DNA of 64,000 bases from a virus, in IMG/VR virus record IMGVR_UViG_3300037512_001384, positions 6,442 to 70,441 of that record. The stretch is one strand, 5' to 3'. The notes under the pieces were generated by a model that searched no databases, was not told the origin of the DNA, and was given only the letters and a program-made list of their open reading frames with translations. The translations under genes and the position numbers were made by a program. Below, piece after piece: positions 1 to 32,749 of this stretch (its first letter is position 1; each line of letters opens with the position of its first letter).

Positions 1-567
1 CAGGTCGCTCAGTTCCAGATTATGACCCGTGGCTTGATTCAGCTCGCCATACGTAGCGGTCAGTACCTCAGAATAACCAACGCCGTTGTACATGAGGGAG
101 AGCTTGTGAAGTATAACCCCTTCACTGATGACTACGAGTTTGACCCGACCAAACGCACAAGCGACAAGGTTATCGGTTATATGGCATACTTCCGTATGGT
201 TGACGGATATGAGAAGTATTTCTATATGACTGAGGCTGAAGTCCTGGCTCATGGCAAGAAATACTCCAAGTCTTTCAACTCCGGTCCTTGGAAGGACAAC
301 ACAGAGGCTATGTGTCTCAAGACCGTGATGAAGTTGCTCCTCTCCAAGTTCGGTATCCTGTCTATCGAGATGCAGCGTGCCATCAAGTATGACCAGGGTA
401 TCGCTAAGGGTGACTTCACTCAGATGGGTAGCGTCGAGGAGATTGACAATGCTGAAGTGGAATATGTCGATAACCCGGAAGAGAACAACAAGCCCGTTGA
501 AGAGAGCGCAGACAACAAGAAGGAAAGGATGCGCAAGGAAAAGAAGGAGAAACCGGAAATGCCGTAA
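1..567 (+). CDS. recT: RecT-family single-strand annealing protein (5' end cut by window edge)
   Basis: Open frame runs from nt 1. Shows RecT-like blocks (GLIQLAIRSGQ, VIGYMAYFRMVDGYEKYFYMTEAEV, SGPWKDNTEAMCLKT) and a K/E-rich tail. Confidence 0.75.
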   Translation, partial: QVAQFQIMTRGLIQLAIRSGQYLRITNAVVHEGELVKYNPFTDDYEFDPTKRTSDKVIGYMAYFRMVDGYEKYFYMTEAEVLAHGKKYSKSFNSGPWKDNTEAMCLKTVMKLLLSKFGILSIEMQRAIKYDQGIAKGDFTQMGSVEEIDNAEVEYVDNPEENNKPVEESADNKKERMRKEKKEKPEMP

Positions 568-570
568 CGC

Positions 571-2658
571 ATGAACAAATACAGCAGCTACACTCCCGAT
601 GAGATGGATAACCTCCTGTCAGGTTATCTCATCGATTCATGGTCATACAGTAAGGTCAACACCTTCGCCCGTAACGAGAAGCAGTTTGAGAAGAACTTCG
701 TCTATCTCGAACCGGACAAACGCAGTATAAGCTCCATTGCCGGTAACGCCTATCACGAGGCGTTGAGGGTTTTCTTCATGGGCTACAATGAAGGTGCGAA
801 GAAGCCGGATCTTGTGGAGTTGTCAACGGTGGCATATAACTACATAGATGATGTTGACGCTAACACATGGAAGCTCAGTGATACTTATCCTTCCGTTGAC
901 CAGGCAAGAGAGCAATGTATCAAGATTGTCACTCTTCTGATTCAGAACTTCTGCGGCGAGTATGGTATCTATACCGACCATATAGCTGAGGTTCTGTCCG
1001 TCGAGGTCAAGGAAGAGTCTCTGGTGGTCTGCAACGGTGTCGATATCCCATTACCTCTGCATTATATTGCAGACCTTGTGATACGCACAAAGGACGGAAA
1101 GGTTGTCATCATAGACCATAAGAGCAAAAGCGCCTATACCGGTGACGATGAGGTCTCTCTTGTGCATGGTCAGCAGGCTATCGCTTACGTACTCGGATAT
1201 GAGCAGCATGACGAGAAGGATGACCGCCATGTAGATGAGGTCTGGTTCATCGAGAATAAGTATTCCAAGAACAAGAACGGCAGCGAGCAGCTTCGTCTGC
1301 ACCGTTTCGTGATGGATGAGGACTCACGCAAATTGCATGAGTATTATCTCTATCAGCCTCTTCGTCGTATGATAGAAGCTGTGGCTGATCCTGACTACAT
1401 CTACACAATCAACGCATCTGACAACCTTGCTGACAAGGCAGAGCTTTACGAGTTCTCGGCACGCACTCTGATTGCAGAGGTTGATGACTTCCCCAATATC
1501 CCGGAAAGGAAGAAGCCTCTGATAGAGAAACGTCAGCGTAAAATCAAGGACTCCAGCATCGCGATGATTTCACCGCGAGTCATACGTTCATTCAGAAAGA
1601 ATGCAGCATCGTTTATTACTTTCGACTATTCGCATAGCAATATGACAAACAAAGAAAAAATCGAACATAAGTTCCGTACCTTCGGCAAACAGGTTCAGGT
1701 AAGCCATGAGATAGAAGGATTCTCATGTAACACCTATCTGTGTGAGGTGGCGGCAGGCATACCCATCGCTTCTCTTAAGACATACGCGAAGGATATCGCT
1801 TACGCTCTTGATGTTCCGTCAGTACGTGTCGCTCAGGACCTGGTGGTACATGAAGGACGTTCTTATCTTTCCATAGAAGTGAGTAAGAAGAGTTCCGAGA
1901 TACTGGCATGGGATGCCAAATATCTTGAGGGTCATCGCATACCTCTCGGACTTGACAACTTCAAAGAGCCGGTAATATGGGATTTGGAGAACCATTCCAC
2001 TCCGCACATGCTTGTCTGTGGTGCTACCGGTTCCGGAAAATCCGTTCTTATCCGCTCTACTATCGCCTATGCCCTTCTCGCCAAGATGCGCGTTATCATC
2101 ATGGATCCCAAATACGAGTTCTCTGCATTCTCAGACAGATGTGAGGTTCATTCGGATATCGCAGACATAGAGAAACGCATGAAGGAACTTGTTGAGGAGA
2201 TGCAAGCCCGCAAGGGTACTTTCGGCGGTCTCACACTGATAGTATTCGATGAGTTCGCTGATGCAGTTTCATCGGCTCGTTCCGGCAAGGAGCTTGACAT
2301 CAGAGAGGAAGTGACAGTCGGTGAGTATAAGGATGGCAGACCGAAGAAGGAGTGGATTGTCACAGGACGTGACAAGAGTCTGGAAGAGAACCTGCAGATG
2401 CTCCTGCAGAAAGGTCGTTCTCTTGGTTATCGCATCCTGTCTGCCACACAGAGAGCTTCAGCCAAGGTTATCACAGGTGACGCCAAGGTCAATTTCCCAT
2501 GTATCTGTTGTTTCAGAGTACCCAAGGCTCTTGACAGTAAGGTTGTGATTGATGAGGATGGCGCACAAGCCCTTGCCGGTAACGGTGACGGACTGTTCAA
2601 GTCGCCTGAGTACATGGATCGTCTCGTGCGATTCCAGGGATTCTTCTATAAAGGATAA
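571..2658 (+). CDS. RecB-family PD-(D/E)xK nuclease fused to FtsK/SpoIIIE-like ATPase domain
   Basis: N-terminal half has GNAYHEAL, a D...IIDHKSKS PD-(D/E)xK core and a QQAIAYVLGY QxxxY motif (Cas4/RecB-like). C-terminal half has Walker A CGATGSGKS, Walker B LIVFDEFAD and an FtsK-like SATQRAS...FPCICCFRV block. One continuous 695-aa ORF placed directly after recT. Confidence 0.75.
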   Translation: MNKYSSYTPDEMDNLLSGYLIDSWSYSKVNTFARNEKQFEKNFVYLEPDKRSISSIAGNAYHEALRVFFMGYNEGAKKPDLVELSTVAYNYIDDVDANTWKLSDTYPSVDQAREQCIKIVTLLIQNFCGEYGIYTDHIAEVLSVEVKEESLVVCNGVDIPLPLHYIADLVIRTKDGKVVIIDHKSKSAYTGDDEVSLVHGQQAIAYVLGYEQHDEKDDRHVDEVWFIENKYSKNKNGSEQLRLHRFVMDEDSRKLHEYYLYQPLRRMIEAVADPDYIYTINASDNLADKAELYEFSARTLIAEVDDFPNIPERKKPLIEKRQRKIKDSSIAMISPRVIRSFRKNAASFITFDYSHSNMTNKEKIEHKFRTFGKQVQVSHEIEGFSCNTYLCEVAAGIPIASLKTYAKDIAYALDVPSVRVAQDLVVHEGRSYLSIEVSKKSSEILAWDAKYLEGHRIPLGLDNFKEPVIWDLENHSTPHMLVCGATGSGKSVLIRSTIAYALLAKMRVIIMDPKYEFSAFSDRCEVHSDIADIEKRMKELVEEMQARKGTFGGLTLIVFDEFADAVSSARSGKELDIREEVTVGEYKDGRPKKEWIVTGRDKSLEENLQMLLQKGRSLGYRILSATQRASAKVITGDAKVNFPCICCFRVPKALDSKVVIDEDGAQALAGNGDGLFKSPEYMDRLVRFQGFFYKG

Positions 2659-2663: not shown

Positions 2664-3068
2664 ATGCAAGCAACTGGTAAGATTATAGCAATACTTGAAC
2701 CGCGTTCTGGCATTGCAAAGGCATCGGGCAATCCTTGGTTTATCCAAGGGTTCGTGCTTCAGACCGAAGAGCAATATCCGAAAAAGATACCATTTGAGGT
2801 ATCCGGTGAGGATAGAGTCAAGAACTTCAATATCCAAAAGGGTGAGACGCTGACCATCAGCTTCGATATTGACGCGAAAGAATGGAATGGAAAATGGATT
2901 CCTTCTATTCGATGCTTCAATATATCTCGTGGTGACGGTCAGCAGCAAGCAGCTCCGGCTCAAACGCAGAATCAGCAACCCGCACAACATGCTGCACCTG
3001 CACCGCAGGCACCGCCACCTGATCCGTTAGAGACCCAGGGAGGTGCAGATGATGATGTCCCCTTCTGA
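2664..3068 (+). CDS. SSB-like OB-fold protein (DUF3127-like) with SSB-type acidic C-terminal tip DDDVPF
   Basis: 134-aa ORF. MQATGKIIAILEPRSG...NPW...FDIDAKEWNGKW pattern, a Q/P/A-rich linker, and a terminal DDDVPF resembling the bacterial SSB C-terminus (DDDIPF). Confidence 0.6.
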   Translation: MQATGKIIAILEPRSGIAKASGNPWFIQGFVLQTEEQYPKKIPFEVSGEDRVKNFNIQKGETLTISFDIDAKEWNGKWIPSIRCFNISRGDGQQQAAPAQTQNQQPAQHAAPAPQAPPPDPLETQGGADDDVPF

Positions 3069-3103
3069 TTAGGATATGTCATTCATAGCCCGGTTAGGCT
3101 TGG

Positions 3104-3418
3104 TTGTCTCTCCGGGCACTAAAAGTGTTTTACATGAACGCAATAGATTTCACTCAGAAATACTCCTATGAGTTCATCCTTAAGCCTCCTCAAACCCTCG
3201 ATTATGAGGAATACAATGTTGATTGGTTCCTCACCCCTCGCGGTGACATGATGTGCAGGCGCGGCGGTTATGAAATATCGTCAGACATTCTGAACCGCCA
3301 ACACTGGCTGTGGTTTCTTGCAGAAAAACGTTGGTTTGACGCCAACACATTTCTTCCCGCCTATTTTGAGGCTTGTCGCAGAGCTGGGATAGAGAAAATT
3401 GAGATGAGGATAAGGTAA
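3104..3418 (+). CDS. hypothetical protein
   Basis: 104-aa ORF in the plus-strand operon with no recognisable motifs. Confidence 0.4.
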   Translation: MSLRALKVFYMNAIDFTQKYSYEFILKPPQTLDYEEYNVDWFLTPRGDMMCRRGGYEISSDILNRQHWLWFLAEKRWFDANTFLPAYFEACRRAGIEKIEMRIR

Positions 3419-3424
3419 TTAACA

Positions 3425-4258
3425 ATGAAAGATTCATTTGTTTTTCATAAAGACTGGTACTTAGCCTTAAAAGGGTTAGACGTTCAAGACAAAGTTGAGG
3501 TCTATGAAGCTATAATGAGCAAAATATTTGATGGTGTAGATAAGAAACTTTCGCCTGTTGCACAGATGGCAATGAATTTTATTTCGCCACAAATTGAAAG
3601 GGATGTTGAACGTTATAATTCCATTTGTGAGCAACGCAAACTATTTGGTAGTAAGGGCGGTATAGCAAAAGCTACCAAAAGCTACCAAAAGGTAGCAAAA
3701 GGTAGCAAAAGCAAGCAAAAGGTGGCAAGTGTAGCTGATAATGATAATAATATATCATCTTCTACTAACGTAGAATCTGATAATGATATTATAGATATAG
3801 AAGTAAAAGATAAATCTTTTCCTTCTAAGAAAAAAAATAAATTATTTATACCGCCTACATTAAACGAAGTAGAGGCGTATGTAAAAGAAAAAGGCTATCA
3901 TTTCAGCGCCAAGGCATTCTTTGACTATTACGAAGCGGATGACTGGCATTACGGCAAAGGCAGTAATAGAACAAAGATATCGAACTGGAAGCGCTGTTGT
4001 GCCACATGGGAGGAGCGGCGTACTACAAGTAATAATATACCTCGTGAACCCGCATCGTTGTTTGATAACCATACTCCCGAACCGGAAGACGAACAGACTT
4101 TATTACAGAAAGCATACGAAGAACTGAACGACACCCAGGAGGCTGAGATATACGGAATGGTCCCCTATGAGTTTCACATGCTGAATGAGAACGGCAAGAA
4201 ATATTGGCGCGAAGTTTACAAGGAAAAGATGCTTGATTGGATCAAGAGCAACAGATGA
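3425..4258 (+). CDS. putative replication initiator (lambda O-like organisation; lysine-rich repeat linker)
   Basis: 277-aa ORF immediately upstream of the primase-helicase, stop overlapping its start (ATGA). Contains an in-gene 10-bp iteron array followed by an AT-rich stretch. C-terminal W-rich block (AFFDYYEADDWHYGKG...NWKRCCATWEER) resembles phage replication-protein C-terminal domains. Confidence 0.45.
   Translation: MKDSFVFHKDWYLALKGLDVQDKVEVYEAIMSKIFDGVDKKLSPVAQMAMNFISPQIERDVERYNSICEQRKLFGSKGGIAKATKSYQKVAKGSKSKQKVASVADNDNNISSSTNVESDNDIIDIEVKDKSFPSKKKNKLFIPPTLNEVEAYVKEKGYHFSAKAFFDYYEADDWHYGKGSNRTKISNWKRCCATWEERRTTSNNIPREPASLFDNHTPEPEDEQTLLQKAYEELNDTQEAEIYGMVPYEFHMLNENGKKYWREVYKEKMLDWIKSNR
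3661..3730. repeat. 10-bp iterons GCTACCAAAA x2 then inverted GGTAGCAAAA x2 (+2 degenerate copies) inside the initiator gene; candidate origin
   Basis: Read directly: aaagctaccaaaagctaccaaaaggtagcaaaaggtagcaaaagcaagcaaaaggtggcaag. GCTACC and GGTAGC are reverse complements. Followed by an ~80% AT stretch at 3735-3860. Confidence 0.6.
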
Positions 4259-6150
4259 GCGACAATATTCTTTATGTAGAGGATTTCAGACACGTCTTAG
4301 GCAGCAGGTCATCAGGTAACATAAAAACCTTCTGTCCTTTCTGCCATGAGAATCGTGGAAACAAGAGGGATAAATCCCTTTCGATAAACTGCGCGACCCT
4401 GGCATATAACTGCCATTATTGCGGTGCGAGCGGTTATCTGAAATCCCGGCATGAGGAAATGATGCGGAGAATAGACAGGGAAACAAGACAGATGTCCAAG
4501 ACTTATCGCAAACCCTCGGTCAAGCCCAACCTTCAACCTAAGCTCAATGCGGACATGGTTGAGTATTTCAAAGGGCGCGGCATCAGCGAGAAGACACTTC
4601 TTGAGGCGAAGGTCACAAAGGAGAATTTCTTTTTCCCGCAAGACAATTGCAAGCGCGGATGTATCGCTTTCAACTACTATGTTGATGACGAGCATATCAA
4701 CACCAAATATCGCACAAGGGACAAGCATTTCGCATTCATTGCCGGTGCCAAGGTAGTCCCCTATAACATAGACAGCATAAGAGAGAGCGCATTCAAGAAG
4801 GGTGAAAAGAAAATCTGCATCATCACTGAAGGTGAAGCGGATACTCTCACTTATATCGAATGCGGCTATAAGCATGTCATATCCATGCCGTCCGGTGCTA
4901 ACACCAATCTGGAATGGATGGATGACTTCACCGAATCCCACTTTGATAAACTTGAACTGATTTATGTATCGACAGACAGTGACAAGAAGGGTGTTGAAGC
5001 CAAGAATGAGATAGTACGAAGGTTTGGAGCTGAAGTATGTAAGATAGTTGAGTATCCGGAAGACTGCAAGGATATAAACGAGGTTCTTGTCAAATATGGA
5101 CCGGAGAAGGTAAAGGAATGCTTCGAGGGTGCTGCGGATATTAGAATCCAAGGTGTCGAGGAACTTGTTGACATAGAGTCAGACCTTGACAACCTGTTTA
5201 CTTCGGGACTTCAAAAGGGAGTAACCCTGGGATTGGAGGATATGGATAAACTTCTGTCCTTCAATACCGGAATGGTGACGGTCGTTACAGGAATCCCTTC
5301 GCACGGCAAAACCCAATGGTTGAATTTCGCTCTGATCAGACTCAATATCCTTCACTCATGGAAGGTGGCGTTCTTCTCTCCTGAGTTCTATCCTGTAGCG
5401 CTGCATATATCCCAAATCATAGAGACGCTTGGAGGTAAAAGGTTCTCATCCCAGAACTATACGCCTCAGACTTACGGCATCCTGAAGGAGTATGTCAACA
5501 AGAATTTCTTTTGGGTGGATCCTGATGACACGGATATAAGCTCAGTCTTGGACAGAGCCAAGTTCCTCATCCGCAAGAGAGGTATCAAGGCGTTTGTGAT
5601 TGACCCTTTCAATTCGCTGACAGACGAGAAGCGAACGATATACAAGCAGGATGAATATATTTCGGACTTCCTGCAGAAGATACGATGGTTCGCCAGGAAG
5701 TATGACGTTGCAATGTTCATCGTCATGCATCCCACCAAACAATACAAGCAGGATAACGGCTTATATCCGGTCTGTGACCTGTACTCATGTAAGGGTGCAT
5801 CTGAGATATACGACAAGGCTGATATCGGCATCACCGTATGGAGAAACGAGCAGGGTAATTACGGTGAGGTGCATGTGACCAAGATGAAGTTCCGTCACAT
5901 GGGACAGAAAGGACATGACACTTTCGTCTATAACTTCAATAACGCCCGGTTCGTTGAGATTCCCACTATGGACGCGAAGCGTGTGGCTCCCGACATGGAT
6001 AAAGTGAAGTGGGATAACAGCAATTATGTAATTGAGAATATCAAGACGCAGCAGAATCAGCAGGAATTGGATTTTGGAGCGGAGCAGCCGGAAACACCAC
6101 ATAATGAAAAACCCTTTGATGCGCCGATAGACGAAGATATCCCGTTCTGA
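4255..6150 (+). CDS. bifunctional DNA primase (Zn-finger + TOPRIM) / DnaB-like helicase
   Basis: CPFCHENRGNKRDKSLSINCATLAYNCHYCG zinc finger; TOPRIM ICIITEGEADTL; Walker A GIPSHGKTQW; Walker B AFVIDPFNSL. ATG at 4255 overlaps the upstream stop (an in-frame ATG at 4237 is the alternative start). C-terminus ends in an SSB-like DEDIPF. Confidence 0.85.
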   Translation: MSDNILYVEDFRHVLGSRSSGNIKTFCPFCHENRGNKRDKSLSINCATLAYNCHYCGASGYLKSRHEEMMRRIDRETRQMSKTYRKPSVKPNLQPKLNADMVEYFKGRGISEKTLLEAKVTKENFFFPQDNCKRGCIAFNYYVDDEHINTKYRTRDKHFAFIAGAKVVPYNIDSIRESAFKKGEKKICIITEGEADTLTYIECGYKHVISMPSGANTNLEWMDDFTESHFDKLELIYVSTDSDKKGVEAKNEIVRRFGAEVCKIVEYPEDCKDINEVLVKYGPEKVKECFEGAADIRIQGVEELVDIESDLDNLFTSGLQKGVTLGLEDMDKLLSFNTGMVTVVTGIPSHGKTQWLNFALIRLNILHSWKVAFFSPEFYPVALHISQIIETLGGKRFSSQNYTPQTYGILKEYVNKNFFWVDPDDTDISSVLDRAKFLIRKRGIKAFVIDPFNSLTDEKRTIYKQDEYISDFLQKIRWFARKYDVAMFIVMHPTKQYKQDNGLYPVCDLYSCKGASEIYDKADIGITVWRNEQGNYGEVHVTKMKFRHMGQKGHDTFVYNFNNARFVEIPTMDAKRVAPDMDKVKWDNSNYVIENIKTQQNQQELDFGAEQPETPHNEKPFDAPIDEDIPF

Positions 6151-6162
6151 TCAAGACATACT

Positions 6163-6175
6163 TTATAGGCATATT
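6163..6175. repeat. left inverted repeat of MTase inverton (TTATAGGCATATT)
   Basis: Perfect 13-bp reverse complement of 6692-6704; 18/20 match when extended. Confidence 0.8.
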
Positions 6176-6688
6176 ATATTTCTTAGAGCCATGCATTATG
6201 GTATCCTTGCGACCGTCATAACCGGTTGCTATCTCCTGTATGGCTTCATGGTCAAAGAAATACTTCTCCTGTTTTGACATCAGGAATATATATTCATGTG
6301 CCTTCGTACAGCGGTCTTTGATGCTTTCGGGCTGCGGATTCAGCTTATGCCAGATGATGTCATTTCTCAGACGGAATCCGATACGGTCTCTTAGTGCGAA
6401 AGCCGCCATCCAGGGAATACCGATAAGACTTTTTGCATTGTCATAGCTATCTCCGAGGTTCAGCCAGAGCGTTCCTTCCGGTTTAAGAACGCGAAACACT
6501 TCCGTGAATACTTCGGTGAGTCTGTCGATATACTCTTCTGGTGACTTCTCCAGACCTATCTGACCGTCAATACCGTAGTCTCGCAGATTGAAATATGGCG
6601 GTGAGGTGACACAGCAATCAACGCAGTTGTCAGGAAGGCTTTTCATTCCGGTGAGGCAGTCTTCATTGAAAACTTTGTTGATTTCCAT
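6163..6688 (-). CDS. N6/N4 DNA methyltransferase, 5' half (MEINK...DPPY...HEYIFLMSK), inverted relative to its 3' half
   Basis: Minus-strand ATG at 6686-6688. Carries MEINKVFNEDCLTGMKSLPDNCVDCCVTSPPY, IIWHKLNP and HEYIFLMSKQEKYFFD (PF01555-like N-terminal and middle regions). As it stands, the frame runs on antisense into the primase 3' end down to 6041. Confidence 0.75.
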
Positions 6689-6691
6689 TAC

Positions 6692-6704
6692 AATATGCCT
6701 ATAA
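6692..6704. repeat. right inverted repeat of MTase inverton (AATATGCCTATAA)
   Basis: Perfect 13-bp reverse complement of 6163-6175. In both orientations it encodes residues N-M-P-I in frame. Confidence 0.8.
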
Positions 6705-7108
6705 TGCCTTCGGGTAACAGGCAGACGATGGCTACGCACGGGCATCAGCGATGGAGGTTCAAGAACCTTCAGGATGATGGACAGCAACCCAATTCGATGC
6801 ATATCAGACGTGCTGCCGGATTGCCGGACCAGCAATATCCGGTCAGAAACAAAAGGGATGTATGGAGTGTAGCCACCAAACCTGAGAAGGCGGCTCATTT
6901 CGCTGTCTATCCCGAAGAGCTCATCAGACCTTGCATCCTTGCCGGATGTCCGAAAGGTGGCCTGGTGCTTGACCCGTTTATGGGAAGTGGCACGACAGCC
7001 AGGGTCGCCCGTAAGTACAATCGCAACTTCATAGGGTATGAACTGAACCCTGAATATATCAAGATTATCAATCAGAAGACGGTGGTGACACCGGACTTGT
7101 TCTCATAG
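6692..7108 (+). CDS. N6/N4 DNA methyltransferase, 3' half (HFAVYPEEL...DPFMGSGTT...), in frame with the right inverted repeat
   Basis: DVWSVATKPEKAAHFAVYPEELIRP and the motif-I VLDPFMGSGTTARVARKYNRNFIGYELNPEY match the C-terminal half of a beta-class MTase. The ORF is open from the IR; the first ATG is at 6695. Confidence 0.75.
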   Translation, partial: NMPIMPSGNRQTMATHGHQRWRFKNLQDDGQQPNSMHIRRAAGLPDQQYPVRNKRDVWSVATKPEKAAHFAVYPEELIRPCILAGCPKGGLVLDPFMGSGTTARVARKYNRNFIGYELNPEYIKIINQKTVVTPDLFS

Positions 7109-8222: not shown

Positions 8223-8681
8223 ATGCACAAACACAACTATTTCGTATCGGTTTTTGTTCACGGTAGGCATGTCAACTCGTATTTCAGCGAGGATCTTGAT
8301 GACCTCGTAACCATAAAGGTTATGAATGGTCCGGACTGTGAGCTGTCGATATTCGACATTAGCCGGTTTGTGCTTCTTACAGCCGAGCAGGTGGAGATAG
8401 AGATAGTCAAATCCAGGAACAGATGGAAGAAATCCCTGGAGAAACATATCGAAGAACCTCCTGAAGAGCCGATTGAGGAGGAGGTGGAGGAGAAACCGAA
8501 GAAGAGCTATGTATGGAAACGACCTGTGTTGTGCGTTGAGACCGGACAGGTATTCAAGTCCATACGTGAATGCTCGGATAAGGTTGGTATCCCATATATG
8601 ACAATAACCAATTGTATCAAGAACAAGAACGCCACGAGAGGCGTTCATTTTATTCAACTTGAAGAAGACGAGACGGAGTGA
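8223..8681 (+). CDS. hypothetical protein with NUMOD-like C-terminal DNA-binding module
   Basis: C-terminus VWKRPVLCVETGQVFKSIRECSDKVGIPYMTITNCIKNKNATRGVHF resembles the NUMOD1-type DNA-binding tail of homing endonucleases; acidic middle region. Confidence 0.45.
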   Translation: MHKHNYFVSVFVHGRHVNSYFSEDLDDLVTIKVMNGPDCELSIFDISRFVLLTAEQVEIEIVKSRNRWKKSLEKHIEEPPEEPIEEEVEEKPKKSYVWKRPVLCVETGQVFKSIRECSDKVGIPYMTITNCIKNKNATRGVHFIQLEEDETE

Positions 8682-9118
8682 TGAGACAGAAAACGATAGT
8701 CTTTGCCGTCATAGCAATGACGTGTGCCGCATTCATAGTGCTGCTTGGCGAGGCATGGCCGTTGATCCCCTTCATCTTGGCCGTATGGTGCGCAGTCAGA
8801 TGCTTCAATATAGAGAACGACCATGAGCCCTTTGACCGGGTGATTGCCGCCATGAGTGAGGCGAGCGGATTGGATACAGACTCGCTTCTTAAGAACACCA
8901 ACAAAAGGGACATCGTGTCATGCCGTTATCTGCTGTTCCTCTTCCTGTATGACAAATGGGAGTGGACAACGGGGCAGATAGGTCGTGCGTTCGGACGCGA
9001 CCATTCGACCGTGACTTACGGCATCAAGAGAGCCCGCGACTTCCTGTCGTTGGCATCCTACAAGAAAGAACAAGACATCTATGCCAAATTCCTGGCACAG
9101 ATACACAATATGGAGTAA
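8678..9118 (+). CDS. membrane-anchored protein with DnaA C-terminal (domain IV)-like helix-turn-helix
   Basis: Two N-terminal hydrophobic segments. C-terminus RDIVSCRYLLFLFLYDKWEWTTGQIGRAFGRDHSTVTYGIKRARDF resembles the DnaA DNA-binding domain. Confidence 0.45.
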   Translation: MMRQKTIVFAVIAMTCAAFIVLLGEAWPLIPFILAVWCAVRCFNIENDHEPFDRVIAAMSEASGLDTDSLLKNTNKRDIVSCRYLLFLFLYDKWEWTTGQIGRAFGRDHSTVTYGIKRARDFLSLASYKKEQDIYAKFLAQIHNME

Positions 9119-9292: not shown

Positions 9293-9363
9293 GGTCGTAT
9301 GGCGTAATGGTAGCGCAACAGACTTTGGTTCTGTGTGTCCCGGTTCGATTCCAGGTACGACTA
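9293..9363 (+). tRNA. tRNA-Gln (anticodon TTG)
   Basis: Cloverleaf folded by hand: acceptor GGTCGTA/TACGACT (G-U closing), D-arm GCGT-AATGGTA-GCGC, anticodon arm ACAGA-CTTTGGT-TCTGT (U33, TTG, G37), T-arm CCCGG-TTCGATT-CCAGG (one C-A mismatch), discriminator A. Confidence 0.65.
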
Positions 9364-9498
9364 CAAATTATTTCAGGGGAAATAAAACCTGAATCGGGGA
9401 AATTTTATCGCCCCAAAATGTGAGAGAAAGGCAATATTGGGAAATCAAAGGAAAATTTCCCCTGTTTTTCAGGTCAAACGGAACAACAAGAAAACAAC

Positions 9499-26667: not shown

Positions 26668-27510
26668 TTATGTGCCGGTGAAGAACCCCATACCGCTCAA
26701 GTCGAGATTATCGGCATCCACGCAGATGTAACGTGATGTCATGTTCTCGTTCTTGTTGTGGTTCATCAGGGCGCAGATGACGGCACGCGGCACACCGCGC
26801 AGAGTCAGGTTGGTGGCGAAGGATCTCCGGGCCGTATGACTCCCGACATACTCGTACTTGGGTCGCGTCTGCGTCTTACCGTGATAGAATATCTTGGTTT
26901 CCTGACTGATACCGCATCGGCGACAGATACGTTTGATGACATCGTTATAAACGGCTCTGTTATGTTCGCCGGTGGGCTTGTACTGCAGGTAACGCATGAG
27001 GTTGCGATGTATCGGTATGGAGCTCTCCACCTTCGTCTTCTGACTCACATAACACAGTCTGCCGTCAATGATGTTATGCTCGGTGAATGACTTGACATCG
27101 GACGTCCTGGCACCGCAGTAGCACTCGATGAGGAAAGCCGCCTTGATGTCCCGTTCCGTGTCATTATGGGGAACATATCGTTCGATACGCTCTATCTCCT
27201 CTTCCGTGAGATAGACGTTCTGTGACGGCACTCTCTTAGCCTTCAATTCCTTCCCGGGATTCTTACAGGGGAATAAATTCTCATCCAGATAAGCGGAAAG
27301 GAAAGCCTTCAATACGGCGAGATAGGTACATGCCGTATTACCGGCTACGTTGTCACAGATATTATCCCTCATCTCGGACAGGTTAAGCGTCGTGAGGTCG
27401 CTCCACTGCACCTCCTGAACGCCTATCGCATCACGCATATACCGAAGGATATGCGCATAGCTGGGTTGTCTTCTGACAAACTCCTGCTCAAAACTTAAAA
27501 TTCCGTTCAT
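26668..27510 (-). CDS. small tyrosine site-specific recombinase (Xer/invertase-sized, 280 aa)
   Basis: C-terminal catalytic region HTARRSFATNL...RGVPRAVICALMNHNKNENMTSRYI (R...HxxR...Y). No large N-terminal arm-binding domain. Confidence 0.8.
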   Translation of the reverse strand: MNGILSFEQEFVRRQPSYAHILRYMRDAIGVQEVQWSDLTTLNLSEMRDNICDNVAGNTACTYLAVLKAFLSAYLDENLFPCKNPGKELKAKRVPSQNVYLTEEEIERIERYVPHNDTERDIKAAFLIECYCGARTSDVKSFTEHNIIDGRLCYVSQKTKVESSIPIHRNLMRYLQYKPTGEHNRAVYNDVIKRICRRCGISQETKIFYHGKTQTRPKYEYVGSHTARRSFATNLTLRGVPRAVICALMNHNKNENMTSRYICVDADNLDLSGMGFFTGT

Positions 27511-27696
27511 ATCATTTGGTTTTTATTGATTACGACGAGTGAAGCCGGACAATATCCCATCGTCCGGCTCCTGATTAACCTAAATACTTATGTGGTAAAA
27601 ACGTACACACGAAAGTATGTGTAAACATGTTGACCACACTGCTACGACTATGGTAATCTTGCTGCCGGAGGACGTTTTACCGTCATCCGGCATTGT

Positions 27697-29073
27697 TTAC
27701 AGGCGCAGTGTACCCGCTCTTGCCGCCTCACAGCGTCTCAGCACCTCCTTACGGTCACGTATGAGTATCCTGGCTCTCATATCCATACCTTCGCCCGTGG
27801 GCTTATCCAGGACACCTATCGCAACCATCGTGAGGAAGTCCTCGATTGCCATACGGCGTGTAAGAAGGAAGGGGAACATACCGAAGTTACGTGGCGTCAA
27901 CTCTGTCCTGCCTTGTGACTCCTGCAGGAAGAGGCATTCGGGTTGTCCCTTGATAGTAACGGTGACACATGGCGCATCCTCCTGTCCCGGGATGTCAAGC
28001 ACGGAACCGGTAAATGTACCTCTGCAGACAAGGTTGAGCAGTATAGCATCCTCGATGTACTCCGTATCTGCATATCCGCATTGTACGCGCACGTCATCAA
28101 TGCCGTCTGAGTAGAGCATATCACCCTTACCCATCAGGTCCTCGGCACCGGTATGGTCGAGGATGACACGCGAATCAATACCCGATGCGACGCGGAACGC
28201 GATACGTACCGGGAAGTTCGCCTTGATGTTTCCTGTCACGATGGTCGCCGACGGACGTTGCGTGGCTATGATCATGTGGATACCGACGGCACGGGCTTTC
28301 TGTGCGATACGGCATATCATACGCTCCATATCCTTCCCGGCTGTCATAATAAGGTCGGCATACTCGTCTATGACCACGATGCAGTAACGCATGTAGTCTT
28401 CACCGTTGAGCTTGTCATTATACTCTTTGATGTTACGTACTCCTTTCTGCGAGAGAAGGGTGTAACGGTACTCCATGAGGTTAATGACACGCTGCAGGAT
28501 AGCGACAGCATCCTCTGTGGTCGTGGCTATGTCATCGGCGAGATACTTGTGCCAGAGAGGAGCGTAGATGTTGAGCTCAACCTGTTTGGGGTCGATGAGC
28601 ACCAACTGCATCTCTTCCGGTGTGCGCTTGCTCATCAGTGAGAGCAGCAGCATGTTCAGGCATACCGACTTACCTTGACCGGTCGCACCGGCAATAAGCA
28701 GGTGCGGCATCTGTGTGAGGTCACGGATGAAGAGTTCTCCCTGTACCGTCTTGCCTATGGCGCATGGAAGTGCCATCCTGCAGGACTCGTAATCGACATG
28801 ATGCAGAACGCTGTCCATGTGTACTATCTGACGTTGGAAGTTGGGAACCTCAATGCCAATCGTACCGCCTGCGAGCGGTCCCATGATGCGTACCGACTCC
28901 GTACCGACCGCCAAGGCAAACTCATCAGCGAGTCTGCGTACACGTGTCATATTCACACCCATATCCGGTCTGAACTCATACAGGGTGACGCTGGGTCCTT
29001 TCGTGACTCTCCAGCTCAGCGGTTCAATCTTATGAACCCTGAGCACCTGTTCTAACTTGTAAGTGTAATCCAT
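27697..29073 (-). CDS. FtsK/SpoIIIE-family DNA translocase (motor + gamma-like domain)
   Basis: Walker A IAGATGQGKS; Walker B IVVIDEYADL; IATQRPSATIVTGNIKANFPVRIAFRV; C-terminal winged-helix-like EDFLTMVAIGVLDKP. Start MDYTYK is preceded by the conserved array upstream element. Confidence 0.8.
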   Translation of the reverse strand: MDYTYKLEQVLRVHKIEPLSWRVTKGPSVTLYEFRPDMGVNMTRVRRLADEFALAVGTESVRIMGPLAGGTIGIEVPNFQRQIVHMDSVLHHVDYESCRMALPCAIGKTVQGELFIRDLTQMPHLLIAGATGQGKSVCLNMLLLSLMSKRTPEEMQLVLIDPKQVELNIYAPLWHKYLADDIATTTEDAVAILQRVINLMEYRYTLLSQKGVRNIKEYNDKLNGEDYMRYCIVVIDEYADLIMTAGKDMERMICRIAQKARAVGIHMIIATQRPSATIVTGNIKANFPVRIAFRVASGIDSRVILDHTGAEDLMGKGDMLYSDGIDDVRVQCGYADTEYIEDAILLNLVCRGTFTGSVLDIPGQEDAPCVTVTIKGQPECLFLQESQGRTELTPRNFGMFPFLLTRRMAIEDFLTMVAIGVLDKPTGEGMDMRARILIRDRKEVLRRCEAARAGTLRL

Positions 29074-29320
29074 AATGATTGTTTGAGTTATTATTGGCGG
29101 AGCAGCTGATGTCACTCAATCAGCTCCAGGACGTGGGATTTGTCCTTTGGAAAAGTGATGCGCACCCATGTCAATGAGTACGCATCTGTTTAACTCTTTA
29201 AATACTACAACTATGCGCCTCACGGCGTTCGTATGTAATAATTAGCACAAAGATAAGGATTCGCCCTTATCCTTGTATGGCGATGTTAATCCTTAACATA
29301 GTTAATGTACGGATTTAACA

Positions 29321-29593
29321 TTAGTAGTGTTGCTGAACGAGGTTGTCGATAGAATCAAGCACCTCATCCACGTCACGTATCACTCCCATCTTACCGAGAT
29401 CTTCCACGATACATTTAAGTCTGACGTAGTTCTTAACCCCCACACGTGTGGCTCCTACGCCGTTTTTTACGAATGACGGGCGTATGGAATGGAAGTGCTT
29501 ACGGAAGAACTGTTCAAGCGACATGAAGCCCACTGTCTTGCTCTTCTGTTCCCTGTTGCTGAAATACTCAGCGGCTAATTTCCTCAGTCTCAT
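29321..29593 (-). CDS. hypothetical protein (array gene)
   Basis: 90-aa ORF with an upstream element variant. Confidence 0.45.
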   Translation of the reverse strand: MRLRKLAAEYFSNREQKSKTVGFMSLEQFFRKHFHSIRPSFVKNGVGATRVGVKNYVRLKCIVEDLGKMGVIRDVDEVLDSIDNLVQQHY

Positions 29594-29844
29594 AGTTACT
29601 TCTCAATTAGTTAAGTTACTACCCTGTTAATTACTGACCGCCTGCACCGTATGAGCCTTGAAGTGGAATAATGCATCTGCAGGTGTCATAGGAATCGGGG
29701 TTGAAAGTATTTCCTCCTTACCCCGGCGGTACACCCTCCATTGGGTGTACTTCTTCTGGGTTGTTTTCTCTTCTTTCATTGCGAATCATTTTAGTTAGAC
29801 ATAATGGCGATTATAGCTGCGTTTCCACAGCTATAACCTTCTTG

Positions 29845-30435
29845 TTACTCGGCGATGTAATCATTCCAGAGAGCTTGTGCCATGATCTCCGCTGCAATCT
29901 CGTCCTCGGGAAGTTGGTTGAACATATCCAATGTGTTGCCATGAAGATCCTCGTCCCCGGCTTCCAAAACATCTCTAATCTCAGAGATGACATCGAGCAT
30001 ATCATCTTTGAGCTGTTGAAAATCCTCAATAGGATTACCGTCGCTGTCATAACAATGGTCGTTCGGATCATTAAGGTTAAGTAGGATGTCGCCCGTTAAG
30101 TTGATAAAGTGATATTCATGATACCCGGGTACGAACGAATACTCTGTCTTGGCGTACTGTTCGCGCAGTGATTTGAGAATGAATATCAGCTCTTCTACCG
30201 GATGCTGAATAACGTATTCGCCTTCTTCTTGGTAGTCTTCAAAGAGCAGGATGATACCGTTATCGATTGGATTTAGGTCCACACCCTGCAGCAATACCTC
30301 GCCGTCATGGTCGTCAATCATGATAGGTGTCTCGAACGTCCACGCAAATCCCATTTTCTTCATCTCCTTGCGGATGTCAGCGATTACCTGCTCTTTGAGC
30401 TCCTTTACTTTTTCGTTGTAGTTTTTTGTTTCCAT
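29845..30435 (-). CDS. hypothetical acidic protein (array gene)
   Basis: 196-aa ORF with the conserved upstream element. Confidence 0.5.
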   Translation of the reverse strand: METKNYNEKVKELKEQVIADIRKEMKKMGFAWTFETPIMIDDHDGEVLLQGVDLNPIDNGIILLFEDYQEEGEYVIQHPVEELIFILKSLREQYAKTEYSFVPGYHEYHFINLTGDILLNLNDPNDHCYDSDGNPIEDFQQLKDDMLDVISEIRDVLEAGDEDLHGNTLDMFNQLPEDEIAAEIMAQALWNDYIAE

Positions 30436-30497
30436 AATTGATGTTTTTTAGGTTAAACGTGGTTCCCTGCAAGCATTTCCGTACTTGCAGGAATAAA

Positions 30498-30977
30498 TCA
30501 CCAATGATTCGCAGTACGTATGTGTTTCATTGTGAATGTAGCGGTCTCTAATGAGCCCTTGAACTTGATGCGGGTAAAGAATGTCACACCCAATTCTCCT
30601 GTGTTGGACAGTTCAGTCTCGACCTTTGTGATTTTGGATGTGTGATTCTTTCCGTCATCAGGGCAATACCATTTGACGGTATCGTTGATGCTGTAGGGAA
30701 TGACAATCAATCCGTTCGGTTTCTCACCCAGATCCACGAAGAAATCAGTCCATCGGTCGTGGCAATTTGCGTTCTTTTCAGGAAGGTATGGCCAGGCGTG
30801 ACTTGCATTCATCTTGTCATTGGTTATAAACCCACAGTCATATTTGCCGGGAGTATAGTTCTCCTTCTGTGAGTAGGCGGGCTCAAAATCACATAGGTAA
30901 ATCCGTCCTTTGCGATAGTAACCCTTGATGTCCTGTTTGCACAAAAACATGTGCCCTTTAATAATCCTCGGTTCCAT
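30498..30977 (-). CDS. hypothetical protein (array gene)
   Basis: 159-aa ORF with the conserved upstream element. Confidence 0.5.
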   Translation of the reverse strand: MEPRIIKGHMFLCKQDIKGYYRKGRIYLCDFEPAYSQKENYTPGKYDCGFITNDKMNASHAWPYLPEKNANCHDRWTDFFVDLGEKPNGLIVIPYSINDTVKWYCPDDGKNHTSKITKVETELSNTGELGVTFFTRIKFKGSLETATFTMKHIRTANHW

Positions 30978-31203
30978 TGTAGTATGATTTAAGAGTTAAA
31001 CAATTGTTGCCGTCACAAAAACTTTCATATCTTTGTGACGTGGAAACTAAAACGGATGTTCAGTCCGTATGTCGGGACTTACCTAAACCCAAGACTTATA
31101 GTCAGGGTGAAGTGCCACACTCTCAGGGAAATTGTAATGCGCATAATTACAATATTTAAAGAGTTAGTTTCCGTCCTCAGCTTAGGGCGCATGAGGGGCC
31201 TAA

Positions 31204-31238
31204 ATGGATGTCTCGCTGGCATCCATTCTTTTTTTATG
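31204..31238 (+). terminator. hairpin + T-run (plus-strand-oriented terminator-like structure inside the minus-strand array)
   Basis: ATGGATG...CATCCAT stem followed by TCTTTTTTT. Confidence 0.35.
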
Positions 31239-31665
31239 ACCTGATTACACGGGCGTAGGAGTGAGTCGGATAGAATATTTCCTCTGCATTCCATGCGCTC
31301 GCCAAATCGTGCAAGTCCTCGAAGCAATCCACGTAATCCGAACCGGCATCGTACATCTCCAATATCTCCTTGTCGGATATTTCATTAAACTCTTTCTCGT
31401 CAAGGATGTCAGCATTGCTATCCAAGATATAGATGCGCTCACGAGATAATGGTTCCTTCATCAGACAACAGAGTAATGCGTCATTGAGCAGATTGGGGAG
31501 TTCTTCCTCGAAATAACCATCCGCGTAATTATCGATTACCTTTCCCTTGAGATTGCAGATGTCAAGGCGGTACGTGTTGTCTTCAGCTTTGACGCTTAGC
31601 TTATAACCGCGTTCTTTTAATTGTTCGTTGGCGAACTTCAGCAGTTTCTTGTTTTCTTTTTCCAT
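31234..31665 (-). CDS. hypothetical protein (array gene)
   Basis: 143-aa ORF with the conserved upstream element. Confidence 0.5.
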   Translation of the reverse strand: MEKENKKLLKFANEQLKERGYKLSVKAEDNTYRLDICNLKGKVIDNYADGYFEEELPNLLNDALLCCLMKEPLSRERIYILDSNADILDEKEFNEISDKEILEMYDAGSDYVDCFEDLHDLASAWNAEEIFYPTHSYARVIRS

Positions 31666-31730
31666 AATAGTGTAGTGTTAGAGTTAAACAATAGCTGATG
31701 CTGTCAGTGTCATCCGGCAGCATCGTAGAT

Positions 31731-32030: not shown

Positions 32031-32094
32031 AATAATATAATTTTGAGTTAAACATATTTGCTTTGGTGTCGAATATCACTCCGACACCAAACAA

Positions 32095-32706: not shown

Positions 32707-32749
32707 AATTGTAGTTTTAAGAGTTAGTTACATGGTGGAGAGATGCATT

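What the first reader, a model, noticed from the sequence alone, without database searches (positions are those of the whole stretch)
2664..6150. SSB-like protein and primase-helicase both end in SSB-like acidic tails (DDDVPF, DEDIPF)
The 134-aa OB-fold-like protein ends in ...GGADDDVPF and the primase-helicase ends in ...DAPIDEDIPF. Both resemble the bacterial SSB C-terminal peptide DDDIPF, which is the hub for SSB-interacting proteins. In T7, gp2.5 (SSB) and gp4 (primase-helicase) both carry acidic tails ending in Phe that bind the polymerase. This phage may use the same tail trick to recruit host SSB-binding partners (chi/Pol III, PriA, RecQ) or its own replisome. No polymerase gene is visible in the window.
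Basis: partly seen in the sequence, partly recalled or inferred. Interest (0 to 1): 0.55.

Follow-up and report, generated by a model that had tools for sequence, protein, structure and literature searches.

The report
SSB-like tails on phage replication proteins
A temperate Bacteroidales phage with no detectable DNA polymerase gene carries the short acidic "...D-D-x-P-F" end-tag of bacterial single-strand-binding protein on both its SSB-like protein and its primase-helicase; the pairing is conserved across hundreds of related phages and probably connects both proteins to the host replication machinery.

Summary
ORF 2664-3068 ends ...GGADDDVPF and ORF 4255-6150 ends ...DAPIDEDIPF. They are the only two of 377 ORFs in the window with such ends.

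The 134-aa protein is a DUF3127 protein. It has a predicted SSB/PriB-like OB fold, a disordered P/Q/A-rich linker and a DDLPF-type tip. 111 of 120 homologues end in PF, and canonical Bacteroidota SSBs also end in DDLPF.

The 631-aa protein is a T7 gp4/Twinkle-type primase-helicase whose last ~30 residues are disordered. 113 of 120 close homologues end in PF, as do 299 of 404 unique tails overall (counting PF, PW and PY), although the linkers have diverged completely. Six cultured Bacteroidota phages carry the same pair of tails, and about 50 prophage and viral loci carry a PF-tailed helicase beside a small protein with a DDLPF-type end. No DNA polymerase was found in the window, upstream of it, or in three complete related genomes. 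A literal T7 mechanism, in which the tails bind the phage's own polymerase, is therefore excluded.

The most likely reading is that both tails are C-terminal docking peptides for host, and possibly phage, proteins that recognise the SSB tip. The helicase tip is looser ([DE][DE]-x-P-F) than the SSB tip, and no partner has been shown. I rate this a new variant of a known design, of moderate interest.

The parts
2664..3068 (+). DUF3127 SSB-like protein, 134 aa. OB-fold domain is residues 1-90 (2664-2933), the disordered P/Q/A-rich linker is residues 91-128 (2934-3047), and the tip DDDVPF is 3048-3065.
   Evidence: Pfam PF11325 E=1.6e-24 and phrog_4932 'single strand DNA binding protein'. AF2 pLDDT is at least 89 for residues 1-90 and below 50 for 92-127. 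Best Foldseek PDB matches are bacterial SSB and PriB. Alignment A1 shows invariant W25, F44, F67, W78, P133, F134.
4255..6150 (+). T7 gp4/Twinkle-type bifunctional primase-helicase, 631 aa, with a Cys4 zinc ribbon, a TOPRIM primase and an SF4 RecA-type helicase.
   Evidence: Toprim_2 and DnaB_C; phrog_239 E=8e-80. Best PDB sequence hit is T7 gp4 5IKN, E=2e-8. Foldseek best hits are T7 gp4 (E=4e-27), then Twinkle. Invariant C27/C30/C53/C56, E192/G193/D196, D241/D243, G351-K352.
6010..6027 (+). Conserved WDNSNY motif (residues 586-591) that begins the C-terminal extension beyond the helicase core.
   Evidence: D587 and N590 are invariant and W586 and N588 at least 90% conserved in A2/A3. It is followed by a predicted helix at 591-600. 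Homologues without a tail end before or just after it.
6055..6129 (+). Disordered linker of the primase-helicase (residues 601-625), including an internal PF at residues 620-621 (6112-6117).
   Evidence: AF2 pLDDT is 38-55 from residue 601 onward. Sequence and length vary freely among homologues. 65 of 113 close PF-tailed homologues have an internal PF 8-11 residues before the terminal one.
6130..6147 (+). C-terminal tip DEDIPF of the primase-helicase.
   Evidence: terminal P-F in 113/120 close homologues and acidic residues at -4 to -6.
3425..4258 (+). DUF6291 protein, 277 aa, translationally coupled (ATGA) to the primase-helicase. It is the probable replication organiser or helicase loader. 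Included as context.
   Evidence: PF19808 E=7e-18; weak phrog_6451 'primosomal protein'. A homologous gene sits immediately upstream of the primase-helicase in phi10:1, PJN03, elemoA ('replication protein') and hattifnatt.
22..2658 (+). Recombination genes just upstream: RecT (22-567, cut by the window start) and a PD-(D/E)XK nuclease fused to an FtsK-like ATPase (571-2658). Included as context, because RecT is a possible reader of the SSB-like tail.
   Evidence: Pfam RecT 1.6e-26, PDDEXK_1 and FtsK_SpoIIIE. Full-length RecT (270 aa), RusA and an integrase lie upstream on the parent contig.

Best explanation
The region is the replication and recombination module of a temperate Bacteroidales phage: RecT, nuclease, SSB-like protein, organiser, primase-helicase. 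No DNA polymerase gene was found, so the phage presumably copies its DNA with the host polymerase.

Both the SSB-like DUF3127 protein and the hexameric gp4-type primase-helicase end in a flexible linker tipped by an acidic ...[DE][DE]-x-P-F-COOH peptide.

Shown: what the proteins are, that the tails are disordered, that the tips are strongly conserved while the linkers drift, that the two tails occur together in Bacteroidota phages, and that no polymerase was found.

Inferred:
(1) The tips are C-terminal docking peptides read through the terminal Phe and its free carboxylate plus the neighbouring acidic residues, as for bacterial SSB-Ct and for the T7 gp4 and gp2.5 tails.
(2) The DUF3127 tip copies the host SSB tip (DDLPF). 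The phage SSB can therefore coat phage ssDNA while keeping access to proteins that read the host SSB tip, including the phage's own RecT.
(3) The six tails of the helicase ring tether it to one or more host replisome or restart proteins. This replaces the helicase-polymerase link that T7 makes with its own polymerase.
For: - Identity of the proteins.
- Conservation of the tips against diverged linkers.
- The tips sit at the extreme C-terminus in more than 90% of close homologues, as expected if the carboxylate is recognised.
- Canonical Bacteroidota SSBs end in DLPF/DDLPF (PMC3991886), the same as the DUF3127 consensus.
- Six cultured Bacteroidota phages (phi10:1, Nekkels_1, PJN03, elemoA, hattifnatt, Tenacibaculum JQ) each carry exactly two such tails in the region examined, one on an SSB-like protein and one on the primase-helicase.
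- 28 prophage loci and 22 viral loci pair a PF-tailed helicase with a small protein carrying a DDLPF-type ([DEN][DEGN]-x-P-F) end.
- In locus L023 the two tails are ALDDDEDLPY and ALDDDEDLPF.
- Tails from the same genome are more alike at -3 to -8 than shuffled pairs, p about 0.001-0.005 (not corrected for phylogeny).
- No polymerase: for the window and metagenomic relatives; for complete cultured genomes.
- Precedents: T7 gp4 and gp2.5 tails bind the gp5 basic patches (PMC8472574, PMC12339929). RecT proteins read the last 7 residues of SSB (bioRxiv 10.1101/2020.04.14.041095).
- A minority of homologues replace the PF tip with a Q-x-E-L-x-[LF] end that resembles a beta-clamp-binding motif: 11 observed against 0.46 expected (motif definition in PMC11139829). 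This fits a tail whose job is to reach the host replisome.
Against: - No interaction has been measured or modelled.
- Position -3 of the helicase tip is usually A/S/T/C, not the I/L/V of SSB tips, so the helicase tail may use a different receptor from the SSB tail.
- Relatives from phages of Pseudomonas and Synechococcus have no such tail, and about a quarter of the homologues lack it, so it is dispensable in some backgrounds.
- Which Bacteroidota proteins read SSB-Ct is unknown. Chi may be absent from that phylum; this comes from my own knowledge and was not tested.
- The covariation test is confounded by shared ancestry.
- The clamp-motif pattern was defined after seeing the data.
- 'No polymerase' rests on Pfam/PHROG hits and on depositors' annotation, and the window does not reach the right end of the prophage.
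Confidence: 0.5

Rival explanations
1. The tails serve contacts within the phage's own proteins. Candidates are the annealing or mediator protein (RecT, ERF or Orf, depending on the phage), the DUF6291 organiser/loader, or each other. For example, the SSB tail could dock on the primase-helicase while the helicase's own tail competes for that site as a cis-acting pseudo-ligand, much as the tips of E. coli SSB and T7 gp2.5 fold back on their own DNA-binding grooves.
For: - RecT proteins recognise the SSB C-terminal 7 residues (bioRxiv 10.1101/2020.04.14.041095), and RecT lies two genes upstream.
- The gp2.5 tail competes with ssDNA for its own groove (PMC12339929).
- The DUF6291 gene is always directly upstream of the helicase.
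- Within-genome similarity of the two tails fits a shared phage-specific receptor as well as a host one.
Against: - The SSB-like tip is nearly invariant DDLPF across at least five unrelated protein families and equals the canonical host SSB tip. That argues for a receptor set fixed by the host rather than one co-evolving inside each phage.
- The annealing protein differs between phages (RecT, ERF, Orf), yet the tails persist.
Confidence: 0.25
2. This is a literal T7-type mechanism. Both tails bind basic patches on a phage-encoded DNA polymerase and so couple helicase, SSB and polymerase.
For: The primase-helicase is a gp4 homologue, and T7 uses exactly this two-tail design (PMC8472574, PMC12339929).
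Against: - No polymerase domain among the large ORFs of the window.
- None among the called genes in the 10 kb either side of the helicase on the parent contig, which reaches past the upstream integrase.
- None in the complete genomes of phi10:1, PJN03 and elemoA.
- None among 10 large neighbouring ORFs of viral relatives.
Confidence: 0.04
3. The terminal LPF/xPF is a degradation tag that controls protein turnover, such as the LPF motif that ClpXP recognises on SsbA in Streptococcus mutans, rather than a docking peptide.
For: In S. mutans UA159 the last three residues (LPF) of SsbA are sufficient for ClpXP degradation (PMC5143411).
Against: - That recognition is strain-dependent and was not seen in the other bacteria tested (PMC5143411, section headings).
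- It does not explain the conserved acidic residues at -4 to -6.
- It does not explain why the tag sits on exactly the two proteins that work at the fork.
Confidence: 0.05
4. The resemblance is coincidental or without function. Acidic low-complexity ends are common, and the two genes merely happen to end alike.
For: The motif is short. About a quarter of the helicase homologues lack it.
Against: The terminal P-F is retained in 113/120 and 111/120 homologues while the adjacent linkers are unalignable. Apart from the helicases and their small partners, only about 0.3% of ORFs in the same loci end in PF.
Confidence: 0.02

Closest known systems
Bacteriophage T7 gp4 (primase-helicase) and gp2.5 (SSB) acidic C-terminal tails
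   Same: A homologous gp4-type primase-helicase. Both the helicase and the phage SSB end in a flexible acidic tail with a terminal Phe. A hexamer presents six tails (PMC8472574; the gp4 tail peptide DTDF and the essential gp2.5 C-terminal Phe are described in PMC12339929).
   Different: T7's tails dock on its own polymerase gp5, and no polymerase was found in this phage. The tip here is ...x-P-F, as in bacterial SSB, not ...D-F. The SSB here is a DUF3127 OB-fold protein, not related to gp2.5 by sequence (one search found no PDB sequence match).
Bacterial SSB C-terminal tip (SSB-Ct, DDDIPF in E. coli, DDLPF in Bacteroidota) as a protein-interaction hub
   Same: The same architecture for the 134-aa protein: OB fold, disordered P/Q/A-rich linker and acidic tip ending in PF at the free C-terminus (PMC5872125; PMC3991886).
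   Different: The OB domain belongs to Pfam DUF3127, not to the SSB family PF00436. ssDNA binding, oligomeric state and partners are untested. Finding the same kind of tip on a replicative helicase is not part of the known SSB picture.
Bacillus phage SPP1 helicase G40P binding the host clamp-loader subunit tau (DnaX) (from my own knowledge; not checked with the tools)
   Same: A polymerase-less phage with its own replicative helicase and SSB that must couple to the host Pol III holoenzyme through a direct helicase-host contact.
   Different: G40P is a DnaB-type helicase without a fused primase. To my knowledge it uses no SSB-like C-terminal peptide.
RecT/Red-beta recognition of the host SSB C-terminal 7 residues
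   Same: A RecT gene lies two genes upstream of the SSB-like gene, and the phage SSB keeps the host-type tip (bioRxiv 10.1101/2020.04.14.041095; PMC13490951).
   Different: That work concerns the host SSB. Here the phage brings its own tip-bearing SSB-like protein, and the helicase carries a tip as well.

Membership tests
T7 gp4 / Twinkle-type bifunctional primase-helicase | N-terminal Cys4 zinc-ribbon domain | tested here: met
   CPFC...CHYC: C27, C30 and C53 are invariant in both helicase alignments; C56 is invariant in A3 and at least 90% conserved in A2. Strands are predicted at 22-61.
T7 gp4 / Twinkle-type bifunctional primase-helicase | TOPRIM primase domain with conserved acidic residues | tested here: met
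   Pfam Toprim_2 E=1.1e-8 at residues 195-284. E192/G193/D196 and D241/D243 are invariant.
T7 gp4 / Twinkle-type bifunctional primase-helicase | C-terminal SF4 (DnaB-like, RecA-fold) helicase domain with a Walker A GK[TS] motif | tested here: met
   DnaB_C E=8e-9 at residues 328-562. GIPSHGKT with G351 and K352 invariant.
T7 gp4 / Twinkle-type bifunctional primase-helicase | Overall sequence and fold similarity to gp4 | tested here: met
   phmmer against the PDB: 5IKN_D E=2e-8 over residues 148-556. Foldseek: 5IKN, 6N9X and 1Q57 at E=1e-27 to 1e-25, Twinkle at 1e-25.
T7-type replisome (two acidic tails docking on the phage polymerase) | A phage-encoded replicative DNA polymerase that receives the tails | tested here: not met
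   No polymerase domain in the large ORFs of the window or on the upstream contig. None is annotated in the complete genomes of phi10:1, PJN03 and elemoA. None among the large neighbours in viral loci.
T7-type replisome (two acidic tails docking on the phage polymerase) | Acidic flexible C-terminal tail ending in an aromatic residue on both the helicase and the SSB | tested here: met
   disorder; conservation.
Bacterial SSB family (Pfam PF00436) | Sequence membership in PF00436 | tested here: not met
   The only Pfam hit is DUF3127 (PF11325). A profile of the family finds no PDB sequence.
Bacterial SSB family (Pfam PF00436) | OB fold resembling SSB | tested here: met
   The AF2 model has pLDDT of at least 89 over residues 1-90. 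Foldseek best matches are bacterial SSBs and PriB, E=2e-4 to 1e-3, target-normalised TM 0.5-0.66. The similarity is modest.
Bacterial SSB family (Pfam PF00436) | Disordered linker plus acidic tip ending in PF | tested here: met
Bacterial SSB family (Pfam PF00436) | ssDNA binding and homo-oligomerisation | not testable with these tools
   The only indirect hint is four invariant aromatic residues (W25, F44, F67, W78) in alignment A1. This recalls the Trp/Phe stacking residues of E. coli SSB listed in PMC3991886.
SSB-Ct-type docking peptide | P-F at the extreme C-terminus (free carboxylate) preceded by acidic residues | tested here: met
   Both proteins in the window and both families.
SSB-Ct-type docking peptide | Aliphatic residue (I/L/V) at position -3 | tested here: inconclusive
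   Met in the window (V and I) and in DUF3127 (L 0.90). In close helicase homologues position -3 is A 0.33, S 0.14, T 0.12, C 0.12. In more distant PF-tailed representatives it is L 0.23, V 0.18, A 0.14, P 0.13.
SSB-Ct-type docking peptide | Binding to SSB-Ct pockets of partner proteins | not testable with these tools
   No tool for modelling complexes or measuring binding was available.
Pfam DUF3127 | Match above the gathering score | tested here: met
   86.3 bits against a cut-off of 27, covering profile positions 3-84 of 85.

The most novel reading that the evidence does not exclude
The free-carboxylate tip ...[DE][DE]-x-P-F may be a portable recruitment code in the replication modules of Bacteroidota phages. 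It is grafted onto at least five unrelated small, presumably ssDNA-binding, protein families and onto the replicative primase-helicase itself. The hexameric helicase would then imitate SSB by presenting six SSB-like tips and so capture host proteins that read SSB-Ct, such as the Pol III holoenzyme or restart factors. That would be the first described replicative helicase to hijack a host replisome by mimicking SSB-Ct. In some relatives the tip appears to be swapped for a beta-clamp-binding-like motif that would reach the same machine by another handle.
Probability: 0.35. Interest if true: 0.7.

Novelty: new variant of a known kind. Interest (0 to 1): 0.55.

Why it matters
How phages that lack a polymerase connect their own helicase to the host polymerase is known for only a few models: lambda P with DnaB, and SPP1 G40P with tau. 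This finding offers a simple, testable handle. A six-residue peptide on a disordered tail is conserved across hundreds of temperate phages of gut and marine Bacteroidota.

If the tails dock on host SSB-Ct readers, three things follow:
- They would identify the SSB interactome of Bacteroidota, which is unstudied.
- They would explain why these phages bring their own tip-bearing SSB-like proteins next to RecT or ERF, which bears on building recombineering tools for Bacteroides.
- They would show that the T7 two-tail design has a host-directed counterpart.

The finding also gives DUF3127, and several unnamed small protein families, a concrete and testable role.

Tried and rejected
1. Does the tail go with absence of a phage polymerase? 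I looked for polymerases next to tailed and untailed helicases in viral loci. None of 10 large neighbouring ORFs was a polymerase; they were tail, portal or unknown proteins. The whole clade seems to lack a polymerase, so no contrast is available.

2. Does the helicase tip follow the host SSB tip across phyla (for example PPF for Actinobacteria)? The nearest cultured relatives of a PPF-tailed (P0311) and an IPF-tailed (P0279) representative are again Bacteroidota phages. The test could not be made.

3. Literature. Searches for DUF3127, for SSB-Ct mimicry by phage helicases and for DDLPF found no description of this arrangement. DUF3127 is mentioned once, only as a domain hit in a Pantoea phage SSB. 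The library does not hold subscription-only papers.

4. A profile of DUF3127 against PDB sequences gave no meaningful hit. Only the fold comparison links it to SSB and PriB.

5. Small DDLPF-ended proteins of the prophage loci were scanned against Pfam and PHROGs. There were no Pfam hits, and the PHROG hits were families of unknown function.

6. Models of complexes (tail peptide with host proteins, RecT or DUF6291) could not be run with the tools offered.

7. The third ORF with a similar end (32095-32706, minus strand...EDIPLPF) has no family hit and lies in what looks like a separate nested element. I did not count it as part of the system.

Full report
**1. The observation**

ORF 2664-3068 (+) encodes 134 aa ending ...LETQGGADDDVPF. 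The ORF ending at 6150 (+) ends ...HNEKPFDAPIDEDIPF. Its likely start is the ATG at 4255, which overlaps the stop of the upstream gene as ATGA. Public gene calls give the same 631-aa product. Of 377 ORFs of at least 50 aa in all six frames of the window, only these two end in an acidic ...[IV]PF. A third ORF, on the other strand at 32095-32706, ends ...EDIPLPF.

**2. The two proteins**

The 134-aa protein matches Pfam DUF3127 (E=1.6e-24) and phrog_4932, which PHROGs labels 'single strand DNA binding protein'.
- An AlphaFold2 model built on 36 homologues is confident for residues 1-90 (pLDDT at least 89) and disordered from 92 to 127.
- The folded part is a five-stranded barrel with one helix. 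Its best Foldseek matches in the PDB are bacterial SSBs and PriB. The scores are modest (E=2e-4 to 1e-3, target-normalised TM 0.5-0.66).
- A sequence profile finds nothing in the PDB.
- The alignment shows a conserved ~88-residue domain with invariant W25, F44, F67 and W78, a P/Q/A-rich linker of variable length, and a tip.
- The protein therefore has the three-part layout of bacterial SSB without belonging to the SSB Pfam family.

The 631-aa protein has Toprim_2 and DnaB_C domains and matches phrog_239 'DNA primase/helicase' at E=8e-80.
- Its best PDB sequence hit is T7 gp4 (5IKN, E=2e-8).
- The best structural matches of its AF2 model are T7 gp4 (E=4e-27) and then human Twinkle.
- The zinc-ribbon cysteines, the TOPRIM acidic residues and the Walker A lysine are invariant or nearly so.
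- The model is confident to residue ~600 and disordered for 601-631.
- A conserved WDNSNY motif at 586-591 marks the start of a C-terminal extension. Homologues without a tail lack this extension.

**3. Conservation of the tails**

- DUF3127: 111 of 120 homologues end in PF. Counting from the end, the residues are D 0.90, D 0.80, L 0.90, P 0.93, F 0.93.
- Primase-helicase, close homologues: 113 of 120 (53-99% identical) end in PF, with 3 PW and 2 PY. P at -2 is 0.99 and F at -1 is 0.94. Positions -4 to -6 are 50-68% acidic, position -3 is never acidic, and the 20-40 residues before that cannot be aligned.
- Cluster representatives at 50% identity (32-58% identical to the query): 78 of 150 end in PF.
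- Pooled over all sources: 299 of 404 distinct tails end in P[FWY].
- A terminal dipeptide held fixed at the end of a freely drifting, disordered linker is the signature of a C-terminal docking peptide that is read with its carboxylate.

The two tips differ. The SSB-like tip is nearly invariant DDLPF. The helicase tip is [DE][DE]-x-P-F, with A/S/T/C commoner than I/L/V at -3 among close relatives. DEDIPF in this phage is at the SSB-like end of that range. In addition, 65 of 113 close PF-tailed homologues, including this one (KPF at 619-621), have a second PF 8-11 residues upstream.

**4. The pairing is a trait of Bacteroidota phages**

The primase-helicase has relatives in 142 deposited phage genomes, mostly phages of Flavobacterium, Cellulophaga, Tenacibaculum and Riemerella. 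In six cultured phages I read both genes:

| Phage | SSB-like tail | Primase-helicase tail |
|---|---|---|
| Cellulophaga phi10:1 | DESDLPF | KEDEVPF |
| Cellulophaga Nekkels_1 | GDDVPF | EDEVPF |
| Riemerella PJN03 | DDDDDLPF (canonical SSB) | YDDFPF |
| Flavobacterium elemoA | HDDLPF (small unnamed protein) | NKEIPF |
| Flavobacterium hattifnatt | SNDLPF (DUF3127) | NSDVPF |
| Tenacibaculum JQ | SDDLPF | EDDVPF |

In each region examined these were the only two ORFs with such ends. More distant relatives from a Pseudomonas phage (...EQAA) and a Synechococcus phage (...DPWA) have no such tail.

A scan of species-representative genomes found 416 relatives. The best 80 are almost all prophages in Bacteroidales, including Phocaeicola, Parabacteroides, Prevotella, Muribaculaceae, Alistipes, Tannerella and Dysgonomonas.
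- 61 of 79 helicases there end in PF, as do 50 of 78 in IMG/VR loci.
- 28 and 22 of those loci respectively also encode a small protein with a DDLPF-type ([DEN][DEGN]-x-P-F) end.
- Most of these small proteins are not DUF3127 and have no Pfam match. They fall into several families of unknown function: phrog_36980, phrog_24909, phrog_19605 and unassigned.
- The tip therefore travels on at least five unrelated protein scaffolds.
- In locus L023 the helicase ends ALDDDEDLPY and the small protein ends ALDDDEDLPF.
- Over 36 genomes, the two tails of one genome are more alike at positions -3 to -8 than shuffled pairs (p about 0.001, or 0.005 without L023). This test does not correct for shared ancestry.

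**5. The host tip**

Canonical SSBs of two Bacteroidota species end in DLPF, against DIPF in E. coli (PMC3991886, table 1). Seven PF00436 SSBs from Riemerella, Cruoricaptor, Elizabethkingia and relatives all end in DDLPF. The DUF3127 tip is thus the tip typical of canonical SSBs from the host phylum.

**6. No polymerase found**

- The exact protein lies on a 107-kb metagenomic contig, on which an integrase sits about 5 kb upstream of RecT. None of the 35 genes called in the 10 kb either side of the helicase gene there has a polymerase domain.
- The ten largest ORFs of the window are a methylase, an FtsK-like ATPase, a D5-like primase, a glycosyltransferase, a portal, a terminase and a capsid protein, among others. 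Ten mid-sized ORFs include none either.
- The complete genomes of phi10:1, PJN03 and elemoA have no annotated polymerase.
- Ten large ORFs beside viral relatives are not polymerases.
- The window stops inside the structural genes, so the far right end of the prophage was not examined.

**7. Mechanism**

In T7, the acidic tails of gp4 and gp2.5, each ending in Phe, bind basic patches on the phage polymerase (PMC8472574, PMC12339929). Here the receiver cannot be a phage polymerase.

The simplest account of the data has two parts.
- The SSB-like protein keeps the host-type tip, so that phage ssDNA coated by it is still served by proteins that read SSB-Ct. These include the phage's own RecT, because RecT proteins recognise the last seven residues of SSB (bioRxiv 10.1101/2020.04.14.041095).
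- The helicase ring uses its six tips to hold on to a host replisome or restart component. This replaces the helicase-polymerase link of T7.

I put this at about 0.5. The main rival, at about 0.25, is that the receivers are phage proteins (the annealing protein, the DUF6291 organiser that always precedes the helicase gene, or the helicase itself), possibly with the helicase tail acting as a competing pseudo-ligand. A degradation-tag role (PMC5143411) and chance are unlikely, for the reasons given under the rival explanations.

One further hint favours a host-replisome role. Among the 105 tails that do not end in PF, 11 end in Q-x-x-[LIM]-(x-[LF]|F), for example QGELEL, QGELGLE and QGEIF, against 0.46 expected from shuffled tails. 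This resembles the beta-clamp-binding motif Q-phi-x-[LM]-(x)-[FL] and the C-terminal QVELEF of Pol III alpha (PMC11139829). The pattern was chosen after seeing the data, and position 2 is Gly rather than aliphatic, so I treat it only as a lead.

**8. Comparison and novelty**

The primase-helicase is a member of the gp4/Twinkle family; every sequence and fold feature tested was met. The system is not a T7-type replisome, because the defining partner polymerase is absent. The 134-aa protein is a DUF3127 member that looks and is organised like SSB, but it is not a PF00436 member.

SSB tips, acidic phage SSB tails and the T7 two-tail design are all known. I could not find any description of an SSB-type x-P-F tip on a replicative primase-helicase, conserved across a large clade of polymerase-less Bacteroidota phages and paired with tip-bearing SSB-like proteins of several folds. 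I rate this a new variant of a known kind, with interest 0.55. It is specific, widespread and directly testable, but it rests on sequence inference, and its logic is an extension of T7 rather than a new principle.

Noticed in passing
C-termini of primase-helicase homologues, e.g. L074 9911-11746, L085 9971-11752, L080 9857-11734, P0268, P0276, P0373: A minority of homologues without the PF tip end instead in QGELEL, QGELGLE, QGRLDL, QGEIF(T) or QQGELFE. This resembles the bacterial beta-clamp-binding motif. 11 of 105 non-PF tails fit, against 0.46 expected from shuffling. The pattern was defined post hoc.
   Followed up: partly
L016 14894-15268, L012 6683-6991, L032 7883-8173, L081 5075-5719, L072 3580-4437 (Bacteroidales prophage loci): Several unrelated small proteins beside the primase-helicase end in DDLPF but are not DUF3127 and have no Pfam hit (phrog_36980, phrog_24909, phrog_19605, or none). 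They may be undescribed SSB-like or adaptor proteins.
   Followed up: partly
window 26668-45100 (minus strand): A second integrase (26668-27510), an FtsK/SpoIIIE-like ATPase (27697-29115) and an ArdA-like antirestriction protein (39005-39997) all lie on the opposite strand. This looks like a separate mobile element nested in or abutting the prophage.
   Followed up: no
window ~46000-64000: G+C rises from about 46% to about 53% at ~46 kb. The higher-GC part holds a D5_N/DUF5906 primase-like gene (46014-47483), a glycosyltransferase, and the portal, terminase and capsid genes. This suggests a mosaic genome, two adjacent elements, or possibly a chimeric assembly.
   Followed up: no
window 55360-58152 (minus strand); homologues P0011, P0016, P0033, P0070, P0088, P0116: The 930-aa large terminase carries a homing-endonuclease (Hom_end) hit, so it probably contains an intein. 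Many primase-helicase homologues of 930-1000 aa also carry LAGLIDADG/Hom_end domains, which indicates inteins in the helicase gene of related phages.
   Followed up: no
window 32095-32706 (minus strand): A 203-aa acidic protein ends ...EIIEDIPLPF, a third LPF-type end in the window. It has no Pfam or PHROG match and lies in the putative nested element.
   Followed up: partly
window 6010-6027 (primase-helicase residues 586-591): A nearly invariant WDN(S/T)N(Y/W) motif, followed by a short helix, sits between the helicase core and the disordered tail. Its role is unknown.
   Followed up: no
window 6041-7108: The N6/N4 DNA methyltransferase is split into two ORFs on opposite strands (minus 6041-6898, plus 6695-7108; both carry N6_N4_Mtase hits in the public gene calls). 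The first overlaps the end of the primase-helicase gene. This may be an inversion or a shufflon-like arrangement.
   Followed up: no
window 8678-9118 and 9293-9364: A small protein with a DnaA C-terminal (Bac_DnaA_C) domain is followed by a tRNA-Gln gene. DnaA-C-like genes recur in the early regions of phi10:1 and hattifnatt, so this may be an origin-recognition factor.
   Followed up: no
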